Source of the DNA: a phage
Sequence record: PZ049722.1
Length of the DNA: 23,441 nt
Strand: one strand, 5' to 3'
In this document: one piece after another, positions 1,148 through 18,443 of the stretch
Layout of the letters: every line of letters begins with the position of its first letter
Position numbering within the stretch: position 1 is the stretch's first letter
Notes under the pieces: model-generated
Database searches by the model: none
Told to the model about the DNA's origin: nothing
What the model saw: only the letters and a program-made list of their open reading frames with translations
Made by a program: the position numbers and the translations under genes

Positions 1148-1313
1148 TCGTCGCCGAGCTCCAAGCCCCTGCATGCTCAGGCCCTGCCCCTGGTTCGGGC
1201 GGCTGCCGAAACTGTCTCAAGAAAGTGCTGGCCAGCGCGGGCAAGGCTGGCTCACCTGGGGCCAGGGCGGGTGAAGCTCAGCGGCAGAAGCCATCTGCCC
1301 AACTGATTACCTC

Positions 1314-2388: not shown

Positions 2389-2402
2389 AGGGGGTGTGAG
2401 CC

Positions 2403-2828
2403 ATGGCCATCACCATCGAACAAATCATGGAGCAGGCTCAGGTGTACGCCTCGGCCTGGAGCCTGGTCGGCGGGCCGTTCGACCAGGGCAACCTGCTGCA
2501 GCAGGCCGAGCTGGAGAAGCGGTGCTGCTGGAGATGGTCACTGCCTTCGAGGACGAACCCATGCCGCAGGGGCCCAGGAAGCGCAGCTCGACCTGGCTAA
2601 GCCGCTGATCGAGTGGCACCAGCACCGCATTGGCAACCTCAGCAAGTTGCAGCAGGCGGTAGAGGGCACTGAGATCCGCCTCGGCGAGGCTGATGCCGAT
2701 CCCATCGTCCTGCAGGCGCGATGCTAAAAGGCTGGCGCTTCGCCTTGGCGATTGCCGAGCAGCAGTTCGAGAAGTTCCCGCTGTCCATCGAGCGCAAAGC
2801 TCCCACCAGCGACGAGGAGGATGACCAT
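2403..2828 (+). pseudogene. Frameshifted copy of the 141-aa early gene found intact at 7871..8296
   Basis: ORF 2403..2600 shares the first 39 residues (MAITIEQIMEQAQVYASAWSLVGGPFDQGNLLQQAELEK) with the 141-aa protein and then leaves frame; 1-bp deletions seen relative to the right arm. Confidence 0.6.
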
Positions 2829-3176
2829 GCGCGCTCCCAACGTCATCCCGCTCAGCGCCAGATCGCCGCTGAGATCTCCATCCAACACGCGCTGCCCATG
2901 TGCACCGTGCTGACCCCTGAACTGGCCGACAAGCTCCGCGCCCTCAACGACATGACCCGCCGCCTGCGCGCGGCGGGCGTGCGTATCGAGGCCGCATCCC
3001 CGCTCGACGGCAAGATCTTCATCAACGCCGAAGACTCCGACCAGCTCGCCGCATCGTTCCGCAGTGAGTGGCGCGGCGTGAGTTGGAGCACCAAAGGCGT
3101 CCACACCATCAACAGCGTCCGCCTCGGCGGCTGCCAAGTCTGCTGGCTTACGCCAGTGAAGGAGCAGGAGTCATGA
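2826..3176 (+). pseudogene. Frameshifted copy of the 118-aa early gene found intact at 7518..7874
   Basis: ORF 2721..3176 carries the C-terminal 100 residues of the 118-aa protein fused to the upstream frame; about two 1-bp deletions near 2815-2860. Confidence 0.6.
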
Positions 3177-3355
3177 GCCTCGAAGCACGCCTGCGCGAAG
3201 CGCTGGAGCTGCTCAAACGCAGCGCCGGCTACGCCTCGGCCTATCCGACCATCGGTGGCCACAAGCTCAACGACGAGATCTGCCGCTTCCGCGAGGCGGT
3301 ACAGGCCGAACTCGAAACCAACGCCCAACAAGCCGAGGAAGAAACCCATGGCTGA
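3173..3355 (+). CDS. Small hypothetical early protein (60 aa), duplicate of 7339..7521
   Basis: Internal ATG with GGAG-type RBS; identical to right-arm copy. Confidence 0.5.
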   Translation: MSLEARLREALELLKRSAGYASAYPTIGGHKLNDEICRFREAVQAELETNAQQAEEETHG

Positions 3356-3968
3356 GCAAATCGCAATCCCCGAAGGCTTCGTCAAGAATGCTGCCGGCCA
3401 TCTGGTGCCGGAACACCAGGTGCGCGAGCACGACAAGCTGCGCGACAGCGTCGCCCGCGAGCTGGCCAACCAGGCCGTGGCCATCAGCGAGGCGCTGGGC
3501 GCGTTCAAGGCTAAGGCCCTGGGCGATATCGCCGACCTGATCGCCATCTCGGCCGAGAAGTACCAGGTCAAGCTCGGCGGCAAGAAGGGCAACGTCTCGA
3601 TCGTCACCTACGACGGCCGCTACAAGATCGAGCGCGCCATGGCCGAGCGCATCACCTTCACCGAGGAGATCCTCGCGGCCAAGGAGCTGATCGACCAGTG
3701 CATCCGCAAATGGAGCGAAGGCGCCGACCAGCACCTGCGCATCCTGGTCGACCGCGCGTTCCGCGCCAACCGCCAGGGCCAGATCAAGACCGGCGACGTG
3801 CTCAGCCTGCTGCGCGTCGAGATCGAAGACCCCGACTGGCAGCGCGCGATGGAGGCCCTGAAGGACTCCATCCAGGTCAACGGCACCGCCGTATACATCC
3901 GCGTCTACCAGCGCGTCGGCAACACCGACCGTTACGAGCCCATCAGCCTCGACATTGCGAAGGTGTGA
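3348..3968 (+). CDS. Conserved phage early protein (206 aa, possibly DUF3164-like), duplicate of 6726..7346
   Basis: Identical protein on both arms; start MAEQIAIPEGF after RBS. Confidence 0.55.
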   Translation: MAEQIAIPEGFVKNAAGHLVPEHQVREHDKLRDSVARELANQAVAISEALGAFKAKALGDIADLIAISAEKYQVKLGGKKGNVSIVTYDGRYKIERAMAERITFTEEILAAKELIDQCIRKWSEGADQHLRILVDRAFRANRQGQIKTGDVLSLLRVEIEDPDWQRAMEALKDSIQVNGTAVYIRVYQRVGNTDRYEPISLDIAKV

Positions 3969-3970
3969 CC

Positions 3971-4678
3971 ATGGACCAGGATCGCATTCTCGAAAAGATC
4001 AAGAAGTGCATGGAGATGGCCAAGGGCAAGGGCTCGAATCCGAACGAGGCCGAAATCGCCCTGCGCCAGGCGCATAAGCTGATGGAGGCCTACAACCTGG
4101 AGATGGGCGACGTCCTGGCCAGCATGGCCGGTGAGGTCACCATCGAAGCCGGCTCGGATGGTACCCCACCCACCTGGCGTATCCGCCTGGCTCAGGTGTG
4201 CGCCCATGCGTTTGGCACGCGCATGATCATCACGCAGAAGCTCACGGACCACTTCGACGTTGTAGGCGCCTTCATCTTTGTGGGCTGCGCAGCGGCACCA
4301 GAGCTGAGCGGATACGCCTACCAAGTGCTGGAGCGGCAGCTGCAGAAGGCTCGACGTGAGTTCCTGCAGTCACCGAAGAACAAGCGCTGCAAGCGCTCAA
4401 CCAAGGTCGCGCGCGGCGATCACTTCGCTAACGGCTGGATTGATGCCGTGTACCTCAAGGTCGACCAGTTCGCTGGCGTTGACGACAACATCGCCGAAGC
4501 GATCGAAGCCTACATGGCGAAGCACCACGCCGACCTGGGCAAGCACGAAATGAAGCGCCGCAAGCTCAAAGCCCGCGATGAAGGTGCCGCCGAGGCCGGT
4601 TACCAGGCTGGCAAGAGCGCCCAACTGCACCACGGACTTGGCCACAAGCCCGTCGCCCGACTGACTCAGGGGGTGTGA
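3971..4678 (+). CDS. DUF2786-like phage protein (235 aa), duplicate of 6016..6723
   Basis: N-terminus MDQDRILEKIKKCMEMAKGKGSNPNEAEIALRQAHKLMEAYNLE resembles the DUF2786 signature; identical on both arms. Confidence 0.55.
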   Translation: MDQDRILEKIKKCMEMAKGKGSNPNEAEIALRQAHKLMEAYNLEMGDVLASMAGEVTIEAGSDGTPPTWRIRLAQVCAHAFGTRMIITQKLTDHFDVVGAFIFVGCAAAPELSGYAYQVLERQLQKARREFLQSPKNKRCKRSTKVARGDHFANGWIDAVYLKVDQFAGVDDNIAEAIEAYMAKHHADLGKHEMKRRKLKARDEGAAEAGYQAGKSAQLHHGLGHKPVARLTQGV

Positions 4679-4679
4679 G

Positions 4680-4904
4680 ATGCAAACCCTTGAATGCACC
4701 GTGAAGTACTACATGGGTGCCTACCAGACCAACACCGTGCGCAGCCAGCGCGCCAGCTGCAGCCACTCCGAGGACGAGGCCGTGCGCCACCTGGGCGTAA
4801 AGCTGTTCGGCGAGCAGCTCCACCACGTCGAGCGCATCGATCTCAAACCCAGCGATCAGCCGGGCATGAGCCGCTGGCTGATCGTTGGTCGGGAGGTGCA
4901 GTGA
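4680..4904 (+). CDS. Small hypothetical protein (74 aa), duplicate of 5790..6014
   Basis: Identical ORF on both arms; starts 2 nt after upstream stop. Confidence 0.45.
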   Translation: MQTLECTVKYYMGAYQTNTVRSQRASCSHSEDEAVRHLGVKLFGEQLHHVERIDLKPSDQPGMSRWLIVGREVQ

Positions 4905-5327
4905 TGGGCCATCCAATTTTCCAAGACGCCCCCTCAAGGGACATGACCAAGGCTCAGGAGCGCCAGGCCGAGCTAGATGCGCAGGTCGAAGCCTTCCTGG
5001 CCAAGGGCGGGGAGATCAAGGCCTTCGACAACTTCCGCCGTCCTGATCCAGAGTGGGCCCTGGCGCTCGAAGTCGATCAACCCCGAGCAGCAGAAGCCAG
5101 CTCAGGCTGCGCCCATCAAGGCGAAACCGGCCAAGCCCGCCGCTCCTGTGAAGGCAAAGCCGGTACCGGAGGTGCCAGCCGAACCGGTGGCGGTGGCTAC
5201 CATCGACCTCAGCGCTGAGCTGCGCGCCTTGCGCAAGCAGACTGCAGCCATCAACCGCCCGGCCTGGCGCGAGTTGAGGTCTTTCGAGGACTCGACGCCA
5301 GCAACGCGGCGCAGCAGCGCGCGATAG
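4904..5327 (+). pseudogene. Frameshifted copy of the 130-aa K/P/A-repeat protein encoded intact at 5395..5790
   Basis: Identical for 47 residues after MGHPIF, then leaves frame near 5041-5050 where the two arms differ by an indel; the proper frame continues in ORF 4977..5327. Confidence 0.6.
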
Positions 5328-5398
5328 CTGTCGTCATCCATGCCCAGTTGGCCCTTGGCGATGTGGATCTTGCTGAGTACGCCTTTCGAGATACTCAT
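5261..5398 (-). pseudogene. GemA-like (Mu gp16, DUF1018-like) gene, 5' fragment of about 46 codons cut by the inversion junction
   Basis: N-terminus MSISKGVLSKIHIAKGQLGMDDDSYRALLRRVAGVESSKDL fits the GemA family start; beyond codon 46 ORF 5102..5398 reads antisense to duplicated sequence. Confidence 0.6.
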
Positions 5399-5790
5399 GC
5401 GCGACCACCCATAGAGCAGCTCAGGCGATTAAGGCGGCGGTTGATGGCTGCAGTCTGCTTGCGCAAGGCGCGCAGCTCAGCACTGAGGTCGATGGTAGCC
5501 ACCACCACCGGTTCGGCTGGCACCTCCGGTACCGGCTTTGCCTTCACAGGAGCGGCGGGCTTGGCCGGTTTCGCCTTGATGGGCGCAGCCTGAGCTGGCT
5601 TCTGCTGCTCGGGGTTGATCGACTTCGAGCGCCAGGGCCCACTCTCGATAGGACGGCGGAAGTTGTCGAAGGCCTTGATCTCCCCGCCCTTGGCCAGGAA
5701 GGCTTCGACCTGCGCATCTAGCTCGGCCTGGCGCTCCTGAGCCTTGGTCATGTCCCTTGAGGGGGCGTCTTGGAAAATTGGATGGCCCAT
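5395..5790 (-). CDS. Hypothetical early protein (131 aa) with K/P/A-rich repeat tail
   Basis: Start MGHPIF overlaps upstream stop; contains PAQAAPIKAKPAKPAAPVKAKPVPEVPAEP. Confidence 0.5.
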   Translation of the reverse strand: MGHPIFQDAPSRDMTKAQERQAELDAQVEAFLAKGGEIKAFDNFRRPIESGPWRSKSINPEQQKPAQAAPIKAKPAKPAAPVKAKPVPEVPAEPVVVATIDLSAELRALRKQTAAINRRLNRLSCSMGGRA

Positions 5791-6014
5791 CACTGCACCT
5801 CCCGACCAACGATCAGCCAGCGGCTCATGCCCGGCTGATCGCTGGGTTTGAGATCGATGCGCTCGACGTGGTGGAGCTGCTCGCCGAACAGCTTTACGCC
5901 CAGGTGGCGCACGGCCTCGTCCTCGGAGTGGCTGCAGCTGGCGCGCTGGCTGCGCACGGTGTTGGTCTGGTAGGCACCCATGTAGTACTTCACGGTGCAT
6001 TCAAGGGTTTGCAT
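5790..6014 (-). CDS. Small hypothetical protein (74 aa)
   Basis: ORF in operon context, tight spacing to neighbours. Confidence 0.45.
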   Translation of the reverse strand: MQTLECTVKYYMGAYQTNTVRSQRASCSHSEDEAVRHLGVKLFGEQLHHVERIDLKPSDQPGMSRWLIVGREVQ

Positions 6015-6015
6015 C

Positions 6016-6723
6016 TCACACCCCCTGAGTCAGTCGGGCGACGGGCTTGTGGCCAAGTCCGTGGTGCAGTTGGGCGCTCTTGCCAGCCTGGTAACCGGCC
6101 TCGGCGGCACCTTCATCGCGGGCTTTGAGCTTGCGGCGCTTCATTTCGTGCTTGCCCAGGTCGGCGTGGTGCTTCGCCATGTAGGCTTCGATCGCTTCGG
6201 CGATGTTGTCGTCAACGCCAGCGAACTGGTCGACCTTGAGGTACACGGCATCAATCCAGCCGTTAGCGAAGTGATCGCCGCGCGCGACCTTGGTTGAGCG
6301 CTTGCAGCGCTTGTTCTTCGGTGACTGCAGGAACTCACGTCGAGCCTTCTGCAGCTGCCGCTCCAGCACTTGGTAGGCGTATCCGCTCAGCTCTGGTGCC
6401 GCTGCGCAGCCCACAAAGATGAAGGCGCCTACAACGTCGAAGTGGTCCGTGAGCTTCTGCGTGATGATCATGCGCGTGCCAAACGCATGGGCGCACACCT
6501 GAGCCAGGCGGATACGCCAGGTGGGTGGGGTACCATCCGAGCCGGCTTCGATGGTGACCTCACCGGCCATGCTGGCCAGGACGTCGCCCATCTCCAGGTT
6601 GTAGGCCTCCATCAGCTTATGCGCCTGGCGCAGGGCGATTTCGGCCTCGTTCGGATTCGAGCCCTTGCCCTTGGCCATCTCCATGCACTTCTTGATCTTT
6701 TCGAGAATGCGATCCTGGTCCAT
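6016..6723 (-). CDS. DUF2786-like phage protein (235 aa)
   Basis: Same protein as 3971..4678; internal start MDQDRILEK. Confidence 0.55.
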   Translation of the reverse strand: MDQDRILEKIKKCMEMAKGKGSNPNEAEIALRQAHKLMEAYNLEMGDVLASMAGEVTIEAGSDGTPPTWRIRLAQVCAHAFGTRMIITQKLTDHFDVVGAFIFVGCAAAPELSGYAYQVLERQLQKARREFLQSPKNKRCKRSTKVARGDHFANGWIDAVYLKVDQFAGVDDNIAEAIEAYMAKHHADLGKHEMKRRKLKARDEGAAEAGYQAGKSAQLHHGLGHKPVARLTQGV

Positions 6724-6725
6724 GG

Positions 6726-7346
6726 TCACACCTTCGCAATGTCGAGGCTGATGGGCTCGTAACGGTCGGTGTTGCCGACGCGCTGGTAGACGCGGATGTA
6801 TACGGCGGTGCCGTTGACCTGGATGGAGTCCTTCAGGGCCTCCATCGCGCGCTGCCAGTCGGGGTCTTCGATCTCGACGCGCAGCAGGCTGAGCACGTCG
6901 CCGGTCTTGATCTGGCCCTGGCGGTTGGCGCGGAACGCGCGGTCGACCAGGATGCGCAGGTGCTGGTCGGCGCCTTCGCTCCATTTGCGGATGCACTGGT
7001 CGATCAGCTCCTTGGCCGCGAGGATCTCCTCGGTGAAGGTGATGCGCTCGGCCATGGCGCGCTCGATCTTGTAGCGGCCGTCGTAGGTGACGATCGAGAC
7101 GTTGCCCTTCTTGCCGCCGAGCTTGACCTGGTACTTCTCGGCCGAGATGGCGATCAGGTCGGCGATATCGCCCAGGGCCTTAGCCTTGAACGCGCCCAGC
7201 GCCTCGCTGATGGCCACGGCCTGGTTGGCCAGCTCGCGGGCGACGCTGTCGCGCAGCTTGTCGTGCTCGCGCACCTGGTGTTCCGGCACCAGATGGCCGG
7301 CAGCATTCTTGACGAAGCCTTCGGGGATTGCGATTTGCTCAGCCAT
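6726..7346 (-). CDS. Conserved phage early protein (206 aa, possibly DUF3164-like)
   Basis: Same protein as 3348..3968. Confidence 0.55.
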   Translation of the reverse strand: MAEQIAIPEGFVKNAAGHLVPEHQVREHDKLRDSVARELANQAVAISEALGAFKAKALGDIADLIAISAEKYQVKLGGKKGNVSIVTYDGRYKIERAMAERITFTEEILAAKELIDQCIRKWSEGADQHLRILVDRAFRANRQGQIKTGDVLSLLRVEIEDPDWQRAMEALKDSIQVNGTAVYIRVYQRVGNTDRYEPISLDIAKV

Positions 7347-7521
7347 GGGTTTCTTCCTCGGCTTGTTGGGCGTTGGTTTCGAGTTCGGCCTGTACCGCCT
7401 CGCGGAAGCGGCAGATCTCGTCGTTGAGCTTGTGGCCACCGATGGTCGGATAGGCCGAGGCGTAGCCGGCGCTGCGTTTGAGCAGCTCCAGCGCTTCGCG
7501 CAGGCGTGCTTCGAGGCTCAT
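7339..7521 (-). CDS. Small hypothetical early protein (60 aa)
   Basis: Same protein as 3173..3355. Confidence 0.5.
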   Translation of the reverse strand: MSLEARLREALELLKRSAGYASAYPTIGGHKLNDEICRFREAVQAELETNAQQAEEETHG

Positions 7522-7874
7522 GACTCCTGCTCCTTCACTGGCGTAAGCCAGCAGACTTGGCAGCCGCCGAGGCGGACGCTGTTGATGGTGTGGACGCCTT
7601 TGGTGCTCCAACTCACGCCGCGCCACTCACTGCGGAACGATGCGGCGAGCTGGTCGGAGTCTTCGGCGTTGATGAAGATCTTGCCGTCGAGCGGGGATGC
7701 GGCCTCGATACGCACGCCCGCCGCGCGCAGGCGGCGGGTCATGTCGTTGAGGGCGCGGAGCTTGTCGGCCAGTTCAGGGGTCAGCACGGTGCACATGGGC
7801 AGCGCGTGTTGGATGGAGATCTCAGCGGCGATCTTGGCGCTGAGCGGGATGACGTTGGGAGCGCGCATGGTCAT
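7518..7874 (-). CDS. Hypothetical early protein (118 aa)
   Basis: Intact ORF in early operon; the left-arm copy is frameshifted. Confidence 0.5.
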   Translation of the reverse strand: MTMRAPNVIPLSAKIAAEISIQHALPMCTVLTPELADKLRALNDMTRRLRAAGVRIEAASPLDGKIFINAEDSDQLAASFRSEWRGVSWSTKGVHTINSVRLGGCQVCWLTPVKEQES

Positions 7875-8296
7875 TCCTCCTCGTCGCTGGTGGGAGCTTT
7901 GCGCTCGATGGACAGCGGGAACTTCTCGAACTGCTGCTCGGCAATCGCCAAGGCGAAGCGCCAGCCTTTTAGCATCGCGCCCTGCAGGACGATGGGATTG
8001 GCATCAGCCTCGCCGAGGCGGATCTCAGTGCCCTCTACCGCCTGCTGCAACTTGCTGAGGTTGCCAATGCGGTGCTGGTGCCACTCGATCAGCGGCTTAG
8101 CCAGGTCGAGCTGCGCTTCCTGGGCCCCTGCGGTATGGGCTTCGTCCTCGAAGGCAGTGACCATCTCCAGCAGCACCAGCTTCTCCAGCTCGGCCTGCTG
8201 CAGCAGGTTGCCCTGGTCGAACGGCCCGCCGACCAGGCTCCAGGCCGAGGCGTACACCTGAGCCTGCTCCATGATTTGTTCGATGGTGATGGCCAT
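7871..8296 (-). CDS. Hypothetical early protein (141 aa)
   Basis: Intact ORF directly downstream of the B gene; the left-arm copy is frameshifted. Confidence 0.5.
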   Translation of the reverse strand: MAITIEQIMEQAQVYASAWSLVGGPFDQGNLLQQAELEKLVLLEMVTAFEDEAHTAGAQEAQLDLAKPLIEWHQHRIGNLSKLQQAVEGTEIRLGEADANPIVLQGAMLKGWRFALAIAEQQFEKFPLSIERKAPTSDEEE

Positions 8297-8299
8297 GGC

Positions 8300-9472
8300 T
8301 CACACCCCCTTCACAACATCAGCGGTGATGCGGCTTTCGCCGATTTCGGCGGCGAGGTTGAGGGCGGCGTTGAACAGGTTGCCGATGGCCAGCGGGTAGA
8401 GCTGGCTGGCACCGTCCTTACCCGAGCTGCCCAGGCGTTCGATGATGGCCTGCACGCCGCTGGCATCGATCAGCTCGTCGAGCTGCTTGCCGGCGTGCTT
8501 GCAACGAAATGCCAGGTGCGCGTCCAGGTCACCGACGGTGATGGGCTGCAGTTGCGCAATCTCGATGCGCTGGGCCACCTCGCGCACGTCGCCGTTGCGC
8601 GGGCTGAGTTTGATCAGCAGCTCGGGCTGGCCGATGAGGATGATGGACAGCAGTTTGTCGAAGCCGTGTTCGAGCTGGTCACGCATGCGCTTGAGGTGCT
8701 TGAGCGTGGGGATGGGCAGCGAGTGCGCCTCTTCGATGATCAGCACATGGCGGAAGCCTGCGCCGTGGCTGGCTTTGAGCGTGGCGTGCATCTGCGCGAA
8801 GCGGGCTTCGGGGCTGGATTTGGCTTTCTCCAGCGGCGCCACAGCGGCCATCACAGACTCGGCAATGTGGGTGGCCTTCAGGGATTTGCCCTTGGTGTCG
8901 TTGTCCTCCATGCCCAGCACGTAGGGTTCGATGACGATCACCGGCTCATTGCGCAGGCGGTGCGCCAGGTCGCGGCGCAGCGTGCTTTTGCCGGCGCCGG
9001 ACTCGCCCACCACGGCCAGGAAGCCATCATGGCGCGCGGTCTGGTACATGCTCTCGCGGATGTAGCGGATATCGGGGCTCAGGTACATCTCATCGGCCGA
9101 CTTGAGGTCGTCGAAGGGGTCGCGGTGCAGGTTGAACGCCCGCTTGGTGTCTGGTCGCAGCACTTGTTTAGCCATTAGCATGTCGGGGCACTCCTGGGTT
9201 TCGTGATTGTTTTCCGGGGTTGCAGGGGCCTGCGCGTTGGCGCGCGCAGGCTCCATCTCTTCAAACGCGGCGCGCACAGCGTCGAACTCCGCGCCTTGTT
9301 GCATCAGGTACTCAGTGATGCCCCAGGCCAGCTGGTTCATCGGGATGCTCTTGGGCCACTGGCCGTGGTTGATCAGTTGGGCGATGGCTGCCGGGCTGAG
9401 CTTCACCGCCCTGGCCAGGTCGGCCTGGCCCTTGCCCACGCTGGCCAGCACTTGCTTGAGACGTTTCATCAC
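8300..9472 (-). CDS. Mu B-like transposition ATPase / target DNA activator (390 aa)
   Basis: Walker A GESGAGKST, N-terminal HTH-like region, sits directly downstream of and overlapping the transposase gene. Confidence 0.8.
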   Translation of the reverse strand: MMKRLKQVLASVGKGQADLARAVKLSPAAIAQLINHGQWPKSIPMNQLAWGITEYLMQQGAEFDAVRAAFEEMEPARANAQAPATPENNHETQECPDMLMAKQVLRPDTKRAFNLHRDPFDDLKSADEMYLSPDIRYIRESMYQTARHDGFLAVVGESGAGKSTLRRDLAHRLRNEPVIVIEPYVLGMEDNDTKGKSLKATHIAESVMAAVAPLEKAKSSPEARFAQMHATLKASHGAGFRHVLIIEEAHSLPIPTLKHLKRMRDQLEHGFDKLLSIILIGQPELLIKLSPRNGDVREVAQRIEIAQLQPITVGDLDAHLAFRCKHAGKQLDELIDASGVQAIIERLGSSGKDGASQLYPLAIGNLFNAALNLAAEIGESRITADVVKGV

Positions 9473-11241
9473 TCACCCCCAACCAGGCGCAGGCCTGGGC
9501 GTGCGGGCGCTTGCAGCTGGGCGACGATGGCGTCGAGCTGCTCCTCCATGGCGCCATCGGGGTAGTTGGCCTTGAGCCATTCCATCGACTCGGGCGTCCA
9601 GCCGCTGCCCAGGCGCGCGCGCAGCGCCTTGGCCAGCTCGATGCGGTTGAGCGGCTTCAGCTCCACCGAGGCCAGGCCGGAGCGGCTTTCCAGCTCTATA
9701 CCGCGCTTGGGCAGGTAGGCCGGCAGCATGGTATTGGCCTGTTCCTTGAACGGGTCGATCTCGCCGCCGAATGGCGTGGCGCGCGCCTTCTTGGCCTTCT
9801 CGGCAGCCTCGATACTGTCGGTGCCAGTGGCGAGCTGGTCCAACGTCTTCTTGGTCTGCTCGGCCTGGCTCTCCGGCAGCGAGCGGATGCCCTCGCCGAT
9901 CACTCGGCGGGTAGCACCGTTGGCGGCGAAGCCGTTGTCATCCTTGTCGACGCGCTCGACCACGTGGTAATGCTCGCGACCGTCTTCGCCGACCAGCACG
10001 AGCTGGGCGCTCTCCTGGTCGCGCCATGGGTTGCGGGTGATCAGCACACTGTCGCCGACCATCAGGCCCGGCACGTCGGCGATGCAGTACTCGGCGCCGC
10101 GGAACGGCACGCGCAGCTTGGCGGTGACCTTGCGCTTCTCCGGCTGGGCGATCGCCAGCTCGCGGCAGATCTCGGCGGCCGGCGCGATGCGCAGCTGCTC
10201 AGGGCGGATCAGCATCCAGGCGCCGTAGCGGGTGCGCTGGTGGCGGGTGTGGATGGCGGTGGCGTTGTAGTGCCGCATCCAGCGCCCGGCCAGGGCGTTG
10301 ATCTGCTCCAGGGTGCTGGGCTTGTCCATCAGGCGCAAGCCGCTCTCGAACTCACGCTCGACGATGTTGTGCGCCTGCTCGACCTGGCCCTTGGCGCGGG
10401 CGTTGCCGACCTTGTTGATGATCAGCTCGATGGACAGCGCATGGCACAGGTTGCGGAACATCGCAGAGGTCATGGCCGCACCGGGGTCGGTCATGATCAT
10501 GAAGGGCGCACCGTGGAATGGATCGTGCTCGCCACGTTTCTGCATCGCGCTGATCAGCACCTCGCAGAGGTTCTTCGCACTCTCGGCGCCCAGCACGTAC
10601 TGCACATAAATAGTGCCGCTGGTGTGGTCGGTGATCACGTAGCGCCACAGGCGCTGCTTCTCGATGCGCTTGAGATTCTCGGGCTTGCCGTCGTAGAACT
10701 CGGCCTTGTTCATGGCGCGGGCGCCGTCGTCGGCCAAGTAGAATTGGGTCGAGATCGAGGCGTCGATCTGCCAGACGTGGTTCGGGTGCAGGCTGACCAG
10801 CTCCACGGCCGGCGCCGGGCGCAGCACCTGATCCGGGTGCAGGCCGTAGGCGCGCAGGGCACGGGCGATGGCATCGAGCGACAGCGGGCGGATCTCGCCG
10901 GTGGCGCCGTCGATGATCTCGGCGCGGATCTGCCCATTGCTGCGCAGGCGCTCCACGGCGCGCTCCAGGGTGCTGAGTTGTTTATCGTTGTCGCGGATGG
11001 ACTGAATCAGCACGGCGCTGATCAGCTCCGCCTCATGCCGCTCCAGAGCCGAGGTGCCGGCATCGCTGCGACGTTTACGGGGAGTGGTCACGGTGACCTC
11101 CTTGAGCTTGCGGTAAACGGTTGCGAGGGTGATGCCCATGTCCGTTGCTGCCGCCCTGCACAGGGCGGTTTTGCTGCCGCGCGGCGCCTGCTCGATGTCT
11201 CGAGCCAGGGCTACCAGGCGTTGGGTCATCACTGCACTCAT
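9469..11241 (-). CDS. Mu A-like DDE transposase (590 aa)
   Basis: Size, N-terminal DNA-binding region, core motifs HVWQIDAS and MIMTDPGAAMTS typical of Mu/B3/D3112 transposases, followed by a B-like ATPase. Confidence 0.85.
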   Translation of the reverse strand: MSAVMTQRLVALARDIEQAPRGSKTALCRAAATDMGITLATVYRKLKEVTVTTPRKRRSDAGTSALERHEAELISAVLIQSIRDNDKQLSTLERAVERLRSNGQIRAEIIDGATGEIRPLSLDAIARALRAYGLHPDQVLRPAPAVELVSLHPNHVWQIDASISTQFYLADDGARAMNKAEFYDGKPENLKRIEKQRLWRYVITDHTSGTIYVQYVLGAESAKNLCEVLISAMQKRGEHDPFHGAPFMIMTDPGAAMTSAMFRNLCHALSIELIINKVGNARAKGQVEQAHNIVEREFESGLRLMDKPSTLEQINALAGRWMRHYNATAIHTRHQRTRYGAWMLIRPEQLRIAPAAEICRELAIAQPEKRKVTAKLRVPFRGAEYCIADVPGLMVGDSVLITRNPWRDQESAQLVLVGEDGREHYHVVERVDKDDNGFAANGATRRVIGEGIRSLPESQAEQTKKTLDQLATGTDSIEAAEKAKKARATPFGGEIDPFKEQANTMLPAYLPKRGIELESRSGLASVELKPLNRIELAKALRARLGSGWTPESMEWLKANYPDGAMEEQLDAIVAQLQAPARPGLRLVGGE

Positions 11242-14635: not shown

Positions 14636-15073
14636 ATGATTGGTGAGCGACTAAAAGAAGAGCGCAAGCGCTTAGGTCTTACCCAGCCCGGGTTGGCCGA
14701 GGTTGCTGGCGCGGCTAAGAGGACTGTCATTGACTGGGAGAAGGGCGTTTCGTCGCCTACAGCAGCCCAGTTAGAGGCACTTTCCAGGGTTGGAGTGGAT
14801 GTGCTTTTCGTCGTCACCGGTATTCGCGGTCAAACTGTGACCAATGAGTCAAATAGCGCGACGTCGCGCTATTTGACTGAAAACTCAAATCCGGTCACGC
14901 ATTCAGTGGAGGCTGAGCCGCTGGGTGAATACCGGCTAAACCGGCGCGAGAAGGCGCTACTGGAGAATTACCGAGGCTCGGACGAAGAAGGACGACGAGC
15001 CATGGAGAGCACCGCGAGTGCTCTGGCGCACAGGGACAGTGCGAAGAAGAAAGGACGCCAAGGCGGCGAATGA
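14636..15073 (+). CDS. XRE-family HTH transcriptional regulator, putative prophage repressor (145 aa)
   Basis: N-terminus ERLKEERKRLGLTQPGLAEVAGAAKRTVIDWEKG is a Cro/C1-type HTH; divergent from the ner-like gene across the operator. Confidence 0.7.
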   Translation: MIGERLKEERKRLGLTQPGLAEVAGAAKRTVIDWEKGVSSPTAAQLEALSRVGVDVLFVVTGIRGQTVTNESNSATSRYLTENSNPVTHSVEAEPLGEYRLNRREKALLENYRGSDEEGRRAMESTASALAHRDSAKKKGRQGGE

Positions 15074-15095
15074 CAGCGCGTATGGGGATTAGGGA

Positions 15096-15833
15096 ATGAG
15101 CAAGGCTCTGATTGTTCTAGGGGTGGTTTTATCTCTGACAGGATGTGCAACTGACTACAGCAAGAAAACCCCGGCTGAAGTGGCAAAGGAGGTGCGTGTT
15201 CTCGACAGTGAGTTCAATGCGCATCGCCTGCTGATGGCGCCAGTGGTGAAAGCGAGCCCCATGTTCGGCATGAACTATTCAGCTCGTTTGGTTAGATCCC
15301 AGGCAAAAGCTGATGGCAGCGTTACACACGTGTTGACCGTTGATTGGGACTACTCAAGTAGCCGATGGATGTTTTTCAGCTCCGCGACGTTGCCGGGCGC
15401 TAGGTCGCTGGTGGTGCGTGCCAACGACAGGCATGTGCGTAGCTGCGGTAGCTATGGCAGTTGCAGTTACACGGAAAGGGTCTCGGCGATCATTCCGCTG
15501 GATGTACTGATTGGGCTTGCTGCAAGTCGTAGCGACATGAACATCAGATTCGGTTCACAGCAGGGCTACGTGGATCTGGCTCTACCGGCAAACTACGTTC
15601 TCGGTTACCTGCAGGGCACCTCAACAATCGCTGAGGCGCAAGGAGGCTCTGCGGCTCCAGCTCCTGCCGCCTCTCGAATCCCGAAATGGGAGCCTGTCCC
15701 AACTCGCCCTGCGGGCCAGCCTGCTGAGGCGGTGGCCAAGAGCAAGGAACAGCAGCTCCAGGAGCTAAAGAACACGCCGGGGCTGAGTTACGAGGAATAT
15801 CAGCGGCGGTATCGGATGATCATGGGGCAGTGA
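15096..15833 (+). CDS. Lipoprotein (245 aa), candidate lysogenic-conversion or superinfection-exclusion factor
   Basis: Signal peptide with lipobox LSLTGC; ATG 23 nt after the repressor stop with GGGA RBS; codon usage appears AT-richer than the phage core. Confidence 0.65.
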   Translation: MSKALIVLGVVLSLTGCATDYSKKTPAEVAKEVRVLDSEFNAHRLLMAPVVKASPMFGMNYSARLVRSQAKADGSVTHVLTVDWDYSSSRWMFFSSATLPGARSLVVRANDRHVRSCGSYGSCSYTERVSAIIPLDVLIGLAASRSDMNIRFGSQQGYVDLALPANYVLGYLQGTSTIAEAQGGSAAPAPAASRIPKWEPVPTRPAGQPAEAVAKSKEQQLQELKNTPGLSYEEYQRRYRMIMGQ

Positions 15834-15844
15834 GGCGACGAACG

Positions 15845-15890
15845 GTACATTGTTCCCATTGCACAATGGGAACAATGTTCCTATAGTGGA
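15845..15890 (+). promoter_or_regulatory. Sigma70-like promoter (-35 TTGCAC, 17-bp spacer, -10 TATAGT) overlapped by a 14+14 bp inverted repeat CATTGTTCCCATTG-ca-CAATGGGAACAATG
   Basis: Read directly from sequence; strong AGGAG RBS follows before the ATG at 15932. Confidence 0.5.
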
Positions 15891-15931
15891 CACATGCCAG
15901 CCACAACGGCGGCGAATCAAGGAGAGAAGCC

Positions 15932-16270
15932 ATGATCACCATCAAATACACTCTGACCCAAGGCATGAGCGGCGCAGGTACTCACACTGAGCTGGAAGTG
16001 GCCACTGGCCCGCGTAATCTGATCAAGTTTGCTGAGGCATTCGATAGCGTGCGTGATCGCCTGAAGGCCGCCTACGGCAACGTTGGATGTGGTCGGGTCT
16101 GGGTAGAAATTGACGGTATTGAGGTTTCCGAGTCCGAGCTGAAAAAATTGACTCGCCAGGACTACGAAATTGACATGCGCGACTACAAGGACGGCATTCG
16201 TTCGAGCAAGCCGGATAGCCTGACCATTCGCGCCACTGATCTGCTTGCAGACCTGCGGGAGGCAGCATGA
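15932..16270 (+). CDS. Hypothetical protein (112 aa), first gene of the cargo operon
   Basis: ORF with AGGAG RBS; stop overlaps the next start (ATGA); no family recognised. Confidence 0.6.
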   Translation: MITIKYTLTQGMSGAGTHTELEVATGPRNLIKFAEAFDSVRDRLKAAYGNVGCGRVWVEIDGIEVSESELKKLTRQDYEIDMRDYKDGIRSSKPDSLTIRATDLLADLREAA

Positions 16271-16860
16271 GCGCTCGGAATAAATACGCAAATTGGGCGC
16301 TTGGCGTGCCGGCTGCGCGGCTTCGTCAGCGTAGCCGCATGAGCACCTATGACGAGGCCGCTACCAGCGGCCTCGCGTTCGAGCTGCAAGAGCTGACCGG
16401 GCTGCGTTTCGATGAGTCGGCCTGGCTGGCCGGCGTAACGTGCCATGTAGCGATTACGCATCCTGCACTGCTCAAGTGGGCCGGTGAGCCGCCAGATGCG
16501 CCGGGATTCATCTACACCTGGGCGACCTGTGCGCCGAATCTACGAGGCTCGCAGCGCGTCGACATCAACGAACGGCGCTTTGAGCGCTGGCTGAAATCCG
16601 CCACCGATGCTGATGCCCTGGCTGACTGGTACGGCTACACCCTGGAGGCGCTAAAAGTTGTGCGCGGGAAACACTTCGATATCCGCACGTTGTTCGATAT
16701 CGGCCGCTTGCGCGCCCTTCACTTCGCCGACGAGCTGCCGCAGGTCGGGCCGCGCGCGTTCTCAGGCTACTGCGCTCTTGAGTTCTACAATCACCAGCCG
16801 CAGGGGCTGGGCGGGGCAGTACCTCGGCAAATTCCGACCGAATTGTTGATTGGCTCATGA
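16267..16860 (+). CDS. Hypothetical protein (197 aa), second gene of the cargo operon
   Basis: Translationally coupled to both neighbours; no family recognised. Confidence 0.6.
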   Translation: MSARNKYANWALGVPAARLRQRSRMSTYDEAATSGLAFELQELTGLRFDESAWLAGVTCHVAITHPALLKWAGEPPDAPGFIYTWATCAPNLRGSQRVDINERRFERWLKSATDADALADWYGYTLEALKVVRGKHFDIRTLFDIGRLRALHFADELPQVGPRAFSGYCALEFYNHQPQGLGGAVPRQIPTELLIGS

Positions 16861-17060
16861 AACCAGACGCCTCCCTACACAACCCAGACCCGCGCTATAT
16901 CGCGGGTCTGGTCGAGCAGACCGGGCTGCTGAAGGGCGAGGTTGCTCGACTGCTGGGTATCACGCCAAAGGCCCTTCGCAACTACATGGACGAGAAATTG
17001 AAGCGCGAAATTCCCTACTCAACCCAGTTCGCCCTTGAGTGCCTGGCCGCTCAGGAATAA
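16857..17060 (+). CDS. Small HTH DNA-binding protein (67 aa), third gene of the cargo operon
   Basis: GEVARLLGITPKALRNYMDE is a classic helix-turn-helix; ATGA overlap with the upstream gene. Confidence 0.6.
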   Translation: MKPDASLHNPDPRYIAGLVEQTGLLKGEVARLLGITPKALRNYMDEKLKREIPYSTQFALECLAAQE

Positions 17061-17090
17061 CGCCAGGAATAATCCGCACACCGTTTTAGA

Positions 17091-17121
17091 GGGCGCCGCA
17101 ATGGCGCCCTTTCGATTTTTG
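17091..17121 (+). terminator. Rho-independent terminator: 7-bp GC stem GGGCGCC/GGCGCCC, 5-nt loop, then a T-rich tract
   Basis: gggcgccGCAATggcgccc followed by tttcgatttttg, 30 nt after the stop of 16857..17060. Confidence 0.7.
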
Positions 17122-17235
17122 CCCCGTCCAAATTACTCCGCGCGCGCGCGAGGCGAAGCTGTGATCTCTGCCGTTTAAGACCGGCACTTATTAGCACAGC
17201 AACGGCCAGGGATTGGCCAACCTCGGAGCGCAATC

Positions 17236-17535
17236 ATGTCTCAAGCCTGCAAGCCCAAGCGCCGCCTACTGCCGCGCATGACCGTTTTCGCTGTTATCTC
17301 CCTGATGCTGCTGACCGCCATCTGGTTCGTGCGGCCCGAGCAACTGCAAGTGGTGCTGTACAAGGCCAGCCTGGTGACGCTCGGCGCCGTGCTGGGTTAC
17401 TACATCGACCGTGCGGTGTTCCTGACCGAAGCCCGGCCGCATGAGTGCATTGGCGGCATCCACATCGTTGGCGCCTGGCTGCGGCGCGCCCTGATCGTGC
17501 TGGCCTGCATCCTCGGCCTGACGCTGGGGCTCTAG
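17236..17535 (+). CDS. Small membrane protein with about 3 TM segments, putative holin
   Basis: Hydrophobic segments VFAVISLMLLTAIWFV, ASLVTLGAVLGYYI and ALIVLACILGLTLGL; sits directly upstream of the endolysin. Confidence 0.5.
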   Translation: MSQACKPKRRLLPRMTVFAVISLMLLTAIWFVRPEQLQVVLYKASLVTLGAVLGYYIDRAVFLTEARPHECIGGIHIVGAWLRRALIVLACILGLTLGL

Positions 17536-17536
17536 T

Positions 17537-18443
17537 CGTGAACCGCCTCAAGCGTTGGCTGGCCGAGGCCGGCAATGACCTGGCGATCATCTGGATGGTC
17601 GAACCGCGCCTGTTCCTGTGGCCGCTTATCCTGCTGGTGTTCGCAGTCGGCTTCTTCATCGTGCCCAAGGCAGATGCTGCAAGCATCCCGACCGCTGCCG
17701 AGCAGCACCGCCGCACCCTGGTACGCGCTGCCCATGCTGAGTGGGGGCTTGGCGCGCCTGTGGCGACGTTCGCGGCGCAGGTGCATCAAGAGAGCGCCTG
17801 GCGGGTGAATGCCCGGTCGCCTGTGGGCGCCGAGGGCTTGGCGCAGTTCATGCCGGCTACGGCGGACTGGATGGCCGAGATCTACCCGCGCAGCCTGGGC
17901 CCGGCGCAGCCGTACAACCCAGGCTGGGCATTGCGGGCCATGGTCGCCTTCGACCGCTGGCTCTACGAACGAAACCAGGCCATCAGCGAGTGCGATCGCT
18001 GGGCGTTCGTGCTGTCCGGCTACAACGGCGGCAATGGCTGGGTGAATCGTGACCGCAGGCTGGCATCGGCTAAGGGTGCCGACCCGCTGGCCTGGTTCGA
18101 TTCCGTCGAGCGGCACAACGCTGGCCGCTCGGCCGCCAACTTCCGCGAGAACCGCCATTACCCGCGCGCCATCCTGCTGCGCTGGGAGCCCATGTATGCG
18201 GCTGCCGGCTGGGGCCCTGGCGTGTGCGCCGAGAGGTATAGCCGCCATGAAGATTCCGACGCTGTTTCTGCTCGTCACGTTGACCACCAGTTCGCCTGCC
18301 GCTTGCTCCCGGAACTGGCTGGCTGCCGCCGAGCTGTTCGCATCGCCACCGCCCCGCGTTCGTCCGGCCCAGCTCTGGCCGCCGGAACGCGCGGACAAAC
18401 GACCACCCCTGCCGCGTTGGTTGCGGCGCCGGCTAAAGCGTAG
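17537..18443 (+). CDS. Endolysin, lytic transglycosylase (SLT domain) with N-terminal membrane anchor (possible SAR type); true 3' end uncertain
   Basis: QVHQESAWRVNARSPVGAEGLAQFMPATADWMAEIY carries the SLT catalytic motif; GTG start 2 nt after the upstream stop; N-terminal hydrophobic stretch LFLWPLILLVFAVGFFIV. Confidence 0.7.

What the first reader, a model, noticed from the sequence alone, without database searches (positions are those of the whole stretch)
15932..17125. Self-contained three-gene cargo operon between the repressor and the lysis cassette
Three translationally coupled genes (112 aa, 197 aa, 67-aa HTH) sit behind their own promoter and palindromic operator and end at a strong terminator just upstream of the holin gene. 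Codon usage appears AT-richer than the phage core, and I recognise no family for the two larger proteins. Temperate phages often carry defense, toxin-antitoxin or conversion cargo next to the repressor. The HTH protein could autoregulate through the upstream palindrome.
Basis: partly seen in the sequence, partly recalled or inferred. Interest (0 to 1): 0.8.

Follow-up and report, generated by a model that had tools for sequence, protein, structure and literature searches.

The report
Anti-CRISPR-type operon with unknown cargo
The three genes are a mobile cassette built like a phage anti-CRISPR operon, with a known type of self-repressor (Aca1) and its promoter, but the two proteins it carries belong to rare, uncharacterised families that elsewhere sit next to CRISPR-repeat decoys, so they are good candidates for a new inhibitor of bacterial CRISPR immunity.

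Summary
Three ATGA-overlapping genes (112, 197 and 67 aa) lie behind one promoter and end at one terminator, with lower GC3 than the phage core.

The interpretation needs correcting. This is counter-defence cargo, not defence or toxin-antitoxin cargo. The 67-aa protein is an Aca1 homologue (PDB Aca1 E=7e-16; 66% identical to the Aca1 that follows AcrIF7 in phage TC7). The promoter copies the JBD30/TC7 acr promoter: IR1, -35, IR2 in a 17-nt spacer, -10, then the Aca1-bound 5'UTR hairpin. A 19-nt piece of that 5'UTR precedes an aca1 gene in 46 of 52 IMG/VR loci.

The cassette (15836-17145) is absent from phages B3 and Ps60 at this position. It recurs at about 85% identity in another contig and in a P2-like phage, where the regulator and operator are swapped.

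The 112- and 197-aa proteins match no known Acr, fold or family. The 197-aa family has 17 clusters among 5.8 billion. The two genes always travel together. Distant relatives on Ralstonia and Serratia plasmids and prophages carry type I-E and I-F CRISPR-repeat mini-arrays inside the module. One relative weakly matches Cse2/Cas11 (TIGR02548, E=1.5e-4), but this was not confirmed.

Best reading: an Aca1-controlled two-protein anti-CRISPR candidate, probably against type I-E.

The parts
15836..17145 (+). Extent of the mobile cassette (promoter through terminator)
   Evidence: 85.6% DNA identity to contig L014 over exactly 15836-17145. The P2-like phage contig L010 shares only 15890-16841 (5'UTR plus the two payload genes). 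B3 and Ps60 have no similarity across 15074-17203, although the flanking repressor and holin align.
15844..15856 (+). IR1 (GGTACATTGTTCC), the upstream imperfect Aca1-type operator
   Evidence: It has one mismatch to GGAACANTGTTCC. Its position upstream of the -35 matches IR1 of JBD30 and TC7. About 40% of acr-aca1 operons have this second site (preprint 10.64898/2026.07.27.740549).
15859..15887 (+). Sigma-70-type promoter: -35 TTGCAC (15859-64), 17-nt spacer, -10 TATAGT (15882-87)
   Evidence: It is the only promoter-like site in 15000-17600. Its architecture is the same as in JBD30 (TTGCGA-17-TAATCT) and TC7 (TTTACG-17-TATGAT).
15869..15881 (+). IR2 (GGAACAATGTTCC), a perfect inverted repeat inside the promoter spacer and the predicted repressing operator
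   Evidence: It is an exact match, with 0.02 expected by chance. It is identical in sequence type and position to the TC7 operator (AGGAACATTGTTCCT). JBD30 IR2 in the same position is the site through which Aca1 represses (PMC8633003).
15896..15913 (+). 5'UTR hairpin GCC-A-GCC-ACAAC-GGC-GGC (the Aca1 RNA motif)
   Evidence: It folds as (((.(((.....)))))), the same as the JBD30, TC7 and L012 5'UTRs. It fits the RNA motif that Aca1 binds in EMSA (preprint). The 19-nt string around it is followed by aca1 in 46 of 52 IMG/VR loci.
15932..16270 (+). Payload gene 1, 112 aa, uncharacterised alpha/beta protein (candidate anti-CRISPR component)
16267..16860 (+). Payload gene 2, 197 aa, uncharacterised and probably all-helical protein (candidate anti-CRISPR component, possible Cse2/Cas11-like)
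   Evidence: ORF. There are 17 homologous clusters among 5.8e9, all hypothetical proteins, from Pseudomonas-type phages and Ralstonia MGEs, plus Serratia plasmids. No Pfam, PHROG, PADLOC, NCBIfam or PDB hit for the window protein. Relative P0017 (41% identical) hits TIGR02548 casB_cse2 at E=1.5e-4 and PF09485 at E=0.033. The AF2 model is unreliable (pLDDT 40).
16857..17060 (+). aca1 homologue, 67 aa HTH autorepressor
   Evidence: PDB Aca1 7c0g/7fa3 at E=7e-16. 49% identical to JBD30 Aca1 and 66% to TC7 Aca1. PHROG 3865 at 8e-22. It is the last gene of the operon, as in acr-aca1 loci.
17088..17120 (+). Intrinsic terminator closing the operon
   Evidence: 11-bp stem (7 G-C pairs), 3-nt loop and a T-run. 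It lies inside the segment shared with L014.

Best explanation
The locus is a horizontally mobile counter-defence cassette of the acr-aca1 type, carried in the variable repressor-to-holin interval of a B3-like (Beetrevirus) transposable phage.

Proposed mechanism. On entry, a strong sigma-70 promoter fires and transcribes the 112-aa gene, the 197-aa gene and aca1 as one translationally coupled mRNA. The Aca1 homologue then accumulates, dimerises and binds IR2 (GGAACAATGTTCC), which lies between the -35 and the -10, shutting the promoter off. IR1 probably acts as a second titrating site, and the 5'UTR hairpin as a second, RNA-level site.

The two payload proteins are the effectors. I infer that they act together, because they are never found apart, as an inhibitor of CRISPR-Cas, most likely of a type I-E Cascade. 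One possible mode is that the 197-aa protein takes the place of, or interferes with, the Cse2/Cas11 small subunit.

Shown here: homology of the regulator, the promoter and 5'UTR architecture, mobility of the cassette, and linkage of the payload family to CRISPR repeats. Inferred: repression by the Aca1 homologue, anti-CRISPR activity, type I-E specificity and the subunit-poisoning mode.

Rough probabilities: Aca1-autoregulated anti-defence operon 0.9; payload is anti-CRISPR 0.6; type I-E is the target 0.4; Cas11-like decoy 0.3.
For: Regulator. The 67-aa protein matches solved Aca1 structures (E=7e-16). It is 49% identical to JBD30 Aca1 and 66% identical to the TC7 Aca1. The upstream gene in TC7 is AcrIF7 (PDB 6m3n, E=1.6e-40). 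In 128 Pseudomonas phage records the homologue sits next to annotated AcrIF2, AcrIF3 or AcrIF7 genes.

Promoter. IR1, the -35, IR2 in a 17-nt spacer, the -10 and the conserved 5'UTR line up with JBD30 and TC7. The operator occurs only there in the window. The half-site (GGAAC in place of the GGCAC of JBD30) changes together with the recognition helix (ALRNY in the window and TC7, VMRYY in JBD30). R47, Y49 and R59 are kept.

5'UTR. The 19-nt motif marks aca1 operons in 46 of 52 IMG/VR hits. Of the other six, 4 are cut by contig ends and 2 are chance hits in coding sequence. The hairpin folds like the Aca1-bound RNA motif.

Cargo status. The cassette is absent from B3 and Ps60. It has low GC3. 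It is about 85% identical in a P2-like phage after gpD, where a KorA-like HTH and a different inverted repeat replace aca1 and its operator. Other relatives carry an RHH-like or an RstR/MqsA-like regulator. This kind of regulator swapping is typical of acr loci.

CRISPR linkage of the payload family. Ralstonia prophages and plasmids have a type I-E repeat, spacer and degenerate repeat between the two genes, and the repeat matches the E. coli I-E repeat at 24 of 28 positions. A wastewater contig has a solitary I-E repeat right after the large gene. Serratia conjugative plasmids carry the module in the psiB/psiA leading region, with an I-F mini-array upstream and two I-E-like hairpins downstream. 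Published work shows that racr and cracr elements cluster with acr genes (PMC10651486; 10.1101/2024.10.29.618823).

Cse2 lead. TIGR02548 scores E=1.5e-4 over 127 co-linear residues and PF09485 scores E=0.033 for family member P0017.
Against: Neither payload protein resembles any known Acr. There was no hit to PDB sequences, no hit to annotated phage genomes, and no hit in the supplements of two Acr-discovery papers.

Fewer than half of Aca1/Aca2-regulated genes have assigned functions, and some are other anti-defence genes, so guilt by association is suggestive only.

The window copy itself has no CRISPR-repeat-like sequence. The repeat association is seen only in relatives at 30-41% identity.

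Obligate pairing is unusual for Acrs, which normally shuffle independently.

The Cse2 similarity is seen in one of 18 family members, below the curated cutoff (21.9 bits against 28.5). It is not reproduced by hhalign (probability under 1%) or by a family HMM against E. coli and Vibrio Cse2 with shuffled controls. The AF2 model of the 197-aa protein is unusable.

The host and its CRISPR type are unknown.
Confidence: 0.6

Rival explanations
1. The operon is Aca1-regulated anti-defence cargo, but the two proteins inhibit a non-CRISPR immune system (restriction-modification, CBASS, Gabija, etc.) or help in another conflict between mobile elements.
For: Aca-regulated operons also contain helicases, RM systems, Mom-like proteins and PAPS reductases, and many unannotated genes. 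The Serratia homologue sits in a plasmid leading region among generic anti-defence and SOS-inhibition genes such as psiB, psiA and an orphan methylase. The wastewater homologue sits next to a giant polyvalent protein. There is no similarity to any known Acr.
Against: CRISPR repeat-like elements lie inside or right next to the module in three independent lineages. That points specifically to CRISPR-Cas. The weak Cse2 hit points the same way.
Confidence: 0.22
2. This is the first reader's reading: the cassette is defence, toxin-antitoxin or superinfection-exclusion cargo that benefits the lysogen, with the HTH acting as antitoxin or repressor.
For: The position next to the repressor is a classic moron site. 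It is a three-gene operon with a small DNA-binding protein. The Aca1 fold resembles the HigA and MqsA antitoxins (PMC8633003). The Serratia regulator weakly hits MqsA and RstR models.
Against: No PADLOC defence model matches. The regulator, operator, promoter and 5'UTR are those of acr operons, which fire early in infection rather than in lysogens. The same payload occurs in plasmid leading regions. CRISPR-repeat decoys are offensive tools of mobile elements.
Confidence: 0.08
3. The genes are ordinary phage functions, such as a late-gene or lysis regulator with accessory proteins, placed just upstream of the holin as C and Mor are in Mu.
For: The position is immediately upstream of the lysis cassette, and the operon includes a small HTH protein.
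Against: The genes are absent at this position from B3, Ps60 and about 140 other Beetrevirus and related records, which still align across the holin. The cassette occurs in P2-like phages and in plasmids. A terminator separates it from the holin. There is no Mor/C Pfam hit.
Confidence: 0.03

Closest known systems
acrIF1-aca1 operon of Pseudomonas phage JBD30 (Casadabanvirus)
   Same: The gene order is the same: payload first, aca1 last. The promoter plan is the same (IR1, -35, IR2 in a 17-nt spacer, -10). The 5'UTR is nearly identical (CATGCCAGCCACAACGGCG) and forms the same hairpin. Aca1 is 49% identical.
   Different: The payload is two unrelated, larger proteins instead of the 78-aa AcrIF1. 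The operator half-site is GGAAC rather than GGCAC, and three base-contacting residues are changed (R44K, V45A, Y48N). The genomic site is the repressor-to-holin interval of a B3-like phage, not the head-gene region of a D3112-like phage.
acrIF7-aca1 operon of Pseudomonas phage TC7 and identical prophage loci (L034, L044, L075)
   Same: This is the closest Aca1 (66% identity). It has the same GGAACA(N)TGTTCC operators at the same positions, the same ALRNY recognition helix and the same 5'UTR.
   Different: The TC7 payload is the solved AcrIF7. The window payload has no known relative.
AcrIB4, a viral homologue of the Cas8b C-terminus/Cas11 proposed to poison type I-B Cascade by replacing Cas11
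   Same: It is the conceptual precedent for the most novel reading here: a protein encoded on a mobile element, derived from the Cascade small subunit, that acts as an anti-CRISPR (10.1101/2025.06.06.658234).
   Different: AcrIB4 shows clear sequence identity to Cas8b (38%). Here the Cse2 similarity is marginal and unconfirmed. The system would be type I-E, and a second obligate partner protein is present.
Racr / Cracr RNA anti-CRISPR loci (solitary repeat units and mini-arrays on mobile elements, often next to acr genes)
   Same: Relatives of the payload pair in Ralstonia, Serratia and a wastewater contig carry I-E and I-F repeat-like units inside the module. This matches the published co-location of racr/cracr with acr genes.
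   Different: The window cassette has no repeat-like element. It would rely on the proteins alone.

Membership tests
Aca1 (anti-CRISPR-associated protein 1) | Significant sequence homology to experimentally characterised Aca1 (JBD30 gp36; PDB 7c0g, 7fa3, 7vjm) | tested here: met
   phmmer against the PDB gives E=7.2e-16 over residues 2-64. BLASTP gives 49% identity, E=6e-23. tblastn gives 66% identity to TC7 Aca1.
Aca1 (anti-CRISPR-associated protein 1) | Conserved DNA-contact residues: R47 and R59 are invariant across homologues, while R44, V45 and Y48 are specificity residues (PMC8633003) | tested here: met
   R47, Y49 and R59 are conserved as R41, Y43 and R50. R44K, V45A and Y48N differ (alignment read). 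The same ALRNY helix occurs in TC7 Aca1, which has the same GGAAC operator.
Aca1 (anti-CRISPR-associated protein 1) | Inverted-repeat operator overlapping the promoter (between -35 and -10), with an optional second repeat upstream | tested here: met
   IR2 at 15869-81 lies in the 17-nt spacer and IR1 at 15844-56 lies upstream. These are the only two matches in the window, with 0.02 expected.
Aca1 (anti-CRISPR-associated protein 1) | 3+3-bp hairpin RNA motif in the 5'UTR just downstream of the transcription start | tested here: met
   15896-15913 folds like the JBD30 motif. It fits the description in preprint 10.64898/2026.07.27.740549. The motif string is followed by aca1 in 46 of 52 IMG/VR loci.
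Aca1 (anti-CRISPR-associated protein 1) | Dimeric repressor that binds IR2 and represses the acr promoter | not testable with these tools
   This needs EMSA or ITC and a reporter assay.
acr-aca operon (anti-CRISPR locus) | An aca gene at the 3' end of a short operon on a mobile element, in a variable region | tested here: met
acr-aca operon (anti-CRISPR locus) | At least one upstream gene homologous to a validated Acr | tested here: not met
   No hit to PDB chains, which include many solved Acrs. No structural match for the 112-aa model. No annotated phage homologue. Nothing in the supplements of two Acr-discovery papers.
acr-aca operon (anti-CRISPR locus) | The payload inhibits a CRISPR-Cas system | not testable with these tools
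   This needs plaque or transformation assays on CRISPR-targeting strains.
Cse2/CasB (Cas11 of type I-E) | Match to PF09485 or TIGR02548 above the curated cutoff | tested here: not met
   The window protein has no hit. Only relative P0017 scores: TIGR02548 at 21.9 bits (cutoff 28.5), E=1.5e-4, and PF09485 at 15.1 bits (cutoff 24.6).
Cse2/CasB (Cas11 of type I-E) | Profile-profile or HMM similarity to bona fide Cse2 sequences | tested here: not met
   hhalign of the family against E. coli CasB, with or without Vibrio Cse2, gives a probability under 1% and aligns only the INERRF motif. The family HMM scores the real Cse2 sequences no better than shuffled ones. Only two Cse2 sequences were available, so this test is weak.
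Cse2/CasB (Cas11 of type I-E) | All-helical two-bundle fold | tested here: inconclusive
   AF2 predicts mostly helices, but at pLDDT 40.
   PADLOC finds nothing for the 112- and 197-aa proteins. The only hit is a weak generic HTH match (mad1, E=0.0056) for the 67-aa protein. Pfam shows only sub-threshold HTH hits.
Racr / Cracr RNA anti-CRISPR | CRISPR repeat-like unit(s) on a mobile element without cas genes | tested here: not met
   No sequence in the window lies within 7 substitutions of the P. aeruginosa I-F, I-E or I-C repeats or the Ralstonia I-E repeat. Rfam finds nothing. The feature is met only in the distant relatives L003, L017, L023, L021 and L080.

The most novel reading that the evidence does not exclude
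The 112-aa and 197-aa pair is a previously undescribed two-protein anti-CRISPR module of phages and conjugative plasmids. Its large subunit would be a highly diverged Cse2/Cas11 homologue that poisons type I-E Cascade by occupying or blocking the small-subunit position. The small alpha/beta protein would be its obligate partner. In some lineages (Ralstonia, Serratia) the same module would be combined with RNA decoys, namely I-E and I-F repeat mini-arrays. That would make it a composite protein-plus-RNA counter-CRISPR cassette, carried behind interchangeable Aca regulators.
Probability: 0.3. Interest if true: 0.8.

Novelty: new member of a known kind. Interest (0 to 1): 0.6.

Why it matters
Operons controlled by Aca1 are the best-validated signpost for finding new anti-CRISPR and anti-defence proteins. 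This cassette has a complete, textbook regulatory frame around two protein families that have no annotation anywhere.

The families are very rare: 17 and about 7 clusters among 5.8 billion, and no hit for the 197-aa family in 100,044 GTDB species representatives. Even so, they have moved between Mu-like phages, P2-like phages and conjugative plasmids of Pseudomonas-type hosts, Ralstonia and Serratia.

The repeated physical linkage to CRISPR repeat decoys gives a specific, cheap hypothesis to test: inhibition of type I-E, and possibly type I-F. If the Cse2 lead holds, this would extend subunit poisoning by viral Cas homologues to the best-studied Cascade.

The locus also supplies a natural Aca1 variant with a matched altered operator (GGAAC half-site and ALRNY helix). 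That is useful for understanding and engineering Aca1 specificity.

Tried and rejected
1. Pfam, PHROG, PADLOC and NCBIfam scans of the 112- and 197-aa proteins found nothing.

2. PDB sequence searches with single sequences and with profiles A1, A2 and A4 returned only chance-level hits.

3. The AF2 model of the 197-aa protein has pLDDT 40 and is unusable.

5. The Cse2 hypothesis was tested with hhalign and with a family HMM against E. coli CasB and a Vibrio Cse2, using shuffled controls. Both were negative. An attempt to collect more Cse2 sequences through plasmids and through a genome-wide I-E repeat scan failed.

6. hhalign of the 112-aa family against the Ralstonia 99-aa family gave no detectable homology. 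They remain positional analogues with similar apparent topology.

7. Peptide strings were searched in the paper library and in the supplements of two Acr-discovery papers, with no hits. The census preprint has no supplements held as text.

8. IMG/VR and GTDB scans for the 197-aa family found 1 and 0 loci.

9. Rfam found nothing in the window or in the Ralstonia mini-array.

10. A search for spacer self-targets inside the Ralstonia and Serratia loci found none.

11. The payload proteins are not strongly acidic (pI 5.2 and 7.8), so a DNA-mimic mechanism is not suggested.

12. The search of 1.84 billion representative proteins could never be run.
Full report
**1. What is there**

The window is a B3-like (Beetrevirus) transposable Pseudomonas phage or prophage.
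- DNA around the locus aligns at 68-83% with Ps60, PM105 and B3 across the repressor and the holin-lysin genes.
- A 92-95% identical contig (L004) carries Mu gp27, portal, F and protease Pfam domains.

Three ORFs lie on the + strand between the HTH_3 repressor (14636-15073), a 245-aa lipoprotein (15096-15833) and the holin (17236-17535, Holin_2-3, 4e-19). They are 15932-16270 (112 aa), 16267-16860 (197 aa) and 16857-17060 (67 aa), joined by ATGA overlaps.

Other features of the locus:
- The only promoter-like site in 15000-17600 is TTGCAC-17-TATAGT at 15859-15887.
- An 11-bp-stem terminator lies at 17088-17120.
- GC3 is 0.62-0.71 in the three genes and 0.77-0.88 in the lysis, terminase and portal genes.

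**2. The 67-aa protein is Aca1**

It hits the solved Aca1 structures at E=7e-16 (7c0g, 7fa3, 7vjn) and is 49% identical to JBD30 Aca1. By tblastn it matches 128 Pseudomonas phage records, at the position just downstream of annotated AcrIF2, AcrIF3 and AcrIF7 genes.

The best match (66%) is in phage TC7. The gene upstream of it there is AcrIF7 (PDB 6m3n, E=1.6e-40).

**3. The promoter is an acr promoter**

Laid side by side, the three promoters have the same plan:

| Phage | IR1 | -35 | IR2 in the 17-nt spacer | -10 |
|---|---|---|---|---|
| JBD30 | GGCACACTGTGCC | TTGCGA | GGCACAATGTGCC | TAATCT |
| TC7 | GGAACAATGTTCC | TTTACG | GGAACATTGTTCC | TATGAT |
| Window | GGTACATTGTTCC | TTGCAC | GGAACAATGTTCC | TATAGT |

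After the -10, all three continue with an almost identical 5'UTR, CATGCCAGCCACAACGGCG.

GGAACANTGTTCC with at most one mismatch occurs only at these two sites in the window, with 0.02 expected by chance.

According to the Aca1-DNA crystal structure paper, JBD30 Aca1 reads the half-site GGCAC through R44, V45, R47, Y48 and R59, and represses through IR2 (PMC8633003). In the window protein R47, Y49 and R59 are kept, while R44K, V45A and Y48N are changed. TC7 Aca1 has the same ALRNY helix and the same GGAAC half-site. This is a matched change of repressor and operator.

The 5'UTR string is an excellent marker. There are 52 exact matches in IMG/VR.
- 46 have an Aca1 homologue on the same strand 185-1184 nt downstream.
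- 4 are cut by contig ends.
- 2 are chance hits inside coding sequence.

The string folds into a 3+3-bp hairpin (15896-15913) identical in form to that of JBD30. A July 2026 preprint describes this hairpin as an RNA motif bound by Aca1 (10.64898/2026.07.27.740549).

**4. The cassette is mobile cargo**

- B3 (ORF20-23) and Ps60 (gp21, gp22) have unrelated genes between the repressor and the holin. Neither has similarity to window 15074-17203.
- Contig L014 shares exactly 15836-17145 at 85.6%, which defines the cassette.
- A P2-like phage contig (L010, after gpU and gpD) shares only 15890-16841, the 5'UTR plus both payload genes. There the Aca1 operators and aca1 are replaced by a different inverted repeat (ATAAACCCTTAAAGGTTTAT) and a KorA-like 70-aa HTH.
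- Other relatives use a 74-aa Aca1 with its own operator (L012), an RHH-like 144-aa protein (L006), or an RstR/MqsA-like HTH (Serratia).

Swapping regulators around a constant payload is characteristic of acr loci.

**5. The payload**

Neither protein has a Pfam, PHROG, PADLOC or NCBIfam family. Neither matches a PDB sequence or an annotated phage homologue.

*The 197-aa protein.* Its AF2 model failed (pLDDT 40).

*Rarity.* The families are tiny: 6 clusters for the small protein and 17 among 5.8 billion for the large one. There is one locus in IMG/VR and none in 100,044 GTDB representative genomes.

*Pairing.* In every context with enough sequence the large gene is immediately preceded by a small gene. 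That small gene belongs to the 112-119-aa family, or in Ralstonia and Serratia to a 79-102-aa protein of similar apparent topology with no detectable homology.

**6. Link to CRISPR**

*Ralstonia.* In Ralstonia solanacearum prophages and plasmids (L003, L017-L020, L023) the spacer between the two genes holds ATTCCCCGCGAACCGCGGGGATGAACCG, then 32-60 nt, then a degenerate copy. The repeat matches the E. coli K-12 type I-E repeat at 24 of 28 positions, including the stem and the 3' handle. It is close to a native Rhodocyclaceae I-E repeat.

*Wastewater contig.* L021 carries the 119-aa, 187-aa and KorA-like genes next to a 4291-aa polyvalent protein. It has a solitary I-E repeat, on the opposite strand, right after the large gene.

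*Serratia.* Serratia marcescens conjugative plasmids carry a 79-aa, 176-aa and HTH module in the psiB/psiA leading region. A type I-F mini-array (ACACTGCCGAACAGGCAGCTTAGAAA, 22 nt, then a degenerate repeat) lies upstream. Two I-E-like hairpins lie downstream. The repeat strings were checked against the literature.

Such solitary repeats and mini-arrays on mobile elements are known RNA anti-CRISPRs (Racr, Cracr) that cluster with acr genes (PMC10651486; 10.1101/2024.10.29.618823).

The window copy has no repeat-like element.

**7. The Cse2 lead**

- The L021 protein (P0017, 41% identical to the window protein) hits TIGR02548 casB_cse2 at E=1.5e-4 (residues 8-134 against model positions 15-140 of 167; 21.9 bits, cutoff 28.5). 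It also hits PF09485 at E=0.033.
- No other member scores.
- hhalign against E. coli CasB, with or without a Vibrio Cse2, aligns only the shared INERRF/INERRI motif at a probability under 1%.
- A family HMM does not separate the real Cse2 sequences from shuffled ones.

I treat this as an unconfirmed lead. It is made more interesting by the type I-E repeats in the same loci and by the precedent of AcrIB4, a Cas8b C-terminus/Cas11 homologue proposed to replace Cas11.

**8. Conclusion**

The regulatory frame is a bona fide acr-aca1 operon, a known kind of system. The payload is a new, obligately paired, very rare two-gene module. Its comparative context points to anti-CRISPR function, most likely against type I-E, but no activity has been shown and there is no homology to any validated Acr.

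Rival readings and my probabilities:
- other anti-defence function, 0.22
- defence or toxin-antitoxin cargo, 0.08
- phage housekeeping function, 0.03

These are discussed with their evidence in the rival-explanations section.

Novelty: new member of a known kind. There is a 0.3 chance that it is a new variant, a Cas11-like subunit-poisoning two-component Acr that is sometimes combined with RNA decoys.

Noticed in passing
window 209-10440 (centre about 5347): There is a giant inverted duplication of the Mu-like early region. Arms 2223-5259 and 5436-8477 are 99-100% complementary, while the outer parts (209-2158 against 8540-10440) are only 81-98% complementary. This is either two related prophage early regions lying head to head, a product of replicative transposition, or an assembly chimera.
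   Followed up: partly
L003 4768-4920; L017 3830-3950; L023 3855-3945: Ralstonia solanacearum prophages and plasmids carry a type I-E CRISPR mini-array (repeat, spacer, degenerate repeat, then a terminator-like hairpin) between the 99-102-aa gene and the 191-aa homologue of the window's 197-aa gene. It is a candidate Racr or Cracr. The spacers have no target within the loci.
   Followed up: partly
L080 5470-5545 and 6463-6534 (Serratia marcescens plasmid NZ_CP027301.1): The leading region of IncI1-like conjugative plasmids, next to psiB and psiA, holds a distant copy of the module. A type I-F mini-array lies upstream, and two type I-E-like repeat hairpins lie between the 176-aa gene and its HTH regulator.
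   Followed up: partly
L021 1533-1561 (minus strand): A solitary type I-E repeat (GTTCCCCGCCTGAGCGGGGATGAACCG) lies between the 187-aa gene and the KorA-like regulator on a wastewater contig. The contig also encodes a 4291-aa polyvalent protein with ddrB-ParB, InPase and helicase domains.
   Followed up: no
L010 3095-3130 and 4095-4307; L021 254-300, 420-445 and 1576-1815: A KorA/TrfB-like 70-79-aa HTH replaces Aca1. It comes with its own inverted repeat (TAAACCCTTAAAGGTTTA or TGTAACCCTTAAAGGTGTA), while the Aca1-type 5'UTR hairpin is retained in L010. It may be an undescribed Aca family.
   Followed up: partly
L012 1460-2032: In one relative, the gene after aca1 encodes a 190-aa protein with a bacterial RNA polymerase alpha C-terminal domain (PF03118, 1e-9). 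That is an unusual passenger for an acr locus.
   Followed up: no
L014 1571-1612 (also L015, L016): The operators here are hybrids (GGCACATTGTTCC and GGAACAATGTGCC), each combining a JBD30-type and a TC7-type half-site. They sit upstream of an Aca1 with the JBD30-type RVMRYY helix. This may be an intermediate in the co-evolution of operator and repressor.
   Followed up: no
window 15096-15833: The 245-aa lipoprotein gene between the repressor and the cassette is itself variable cargo. The 95%-identical phage L004 has different genes across 15074-15739. Only the last 90 nt or so are shared, and that C-terminal tail also resembles B3 ORF22 and PHROGs 29962 and 10370.
   Followed up: partly
L083 7510-7660: A Rhodocyclaceae MAG has a three-repeat type I-E mini-array next to a type II-C cas9 gene, with no I-E cas genes in view.
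   Followed up: no
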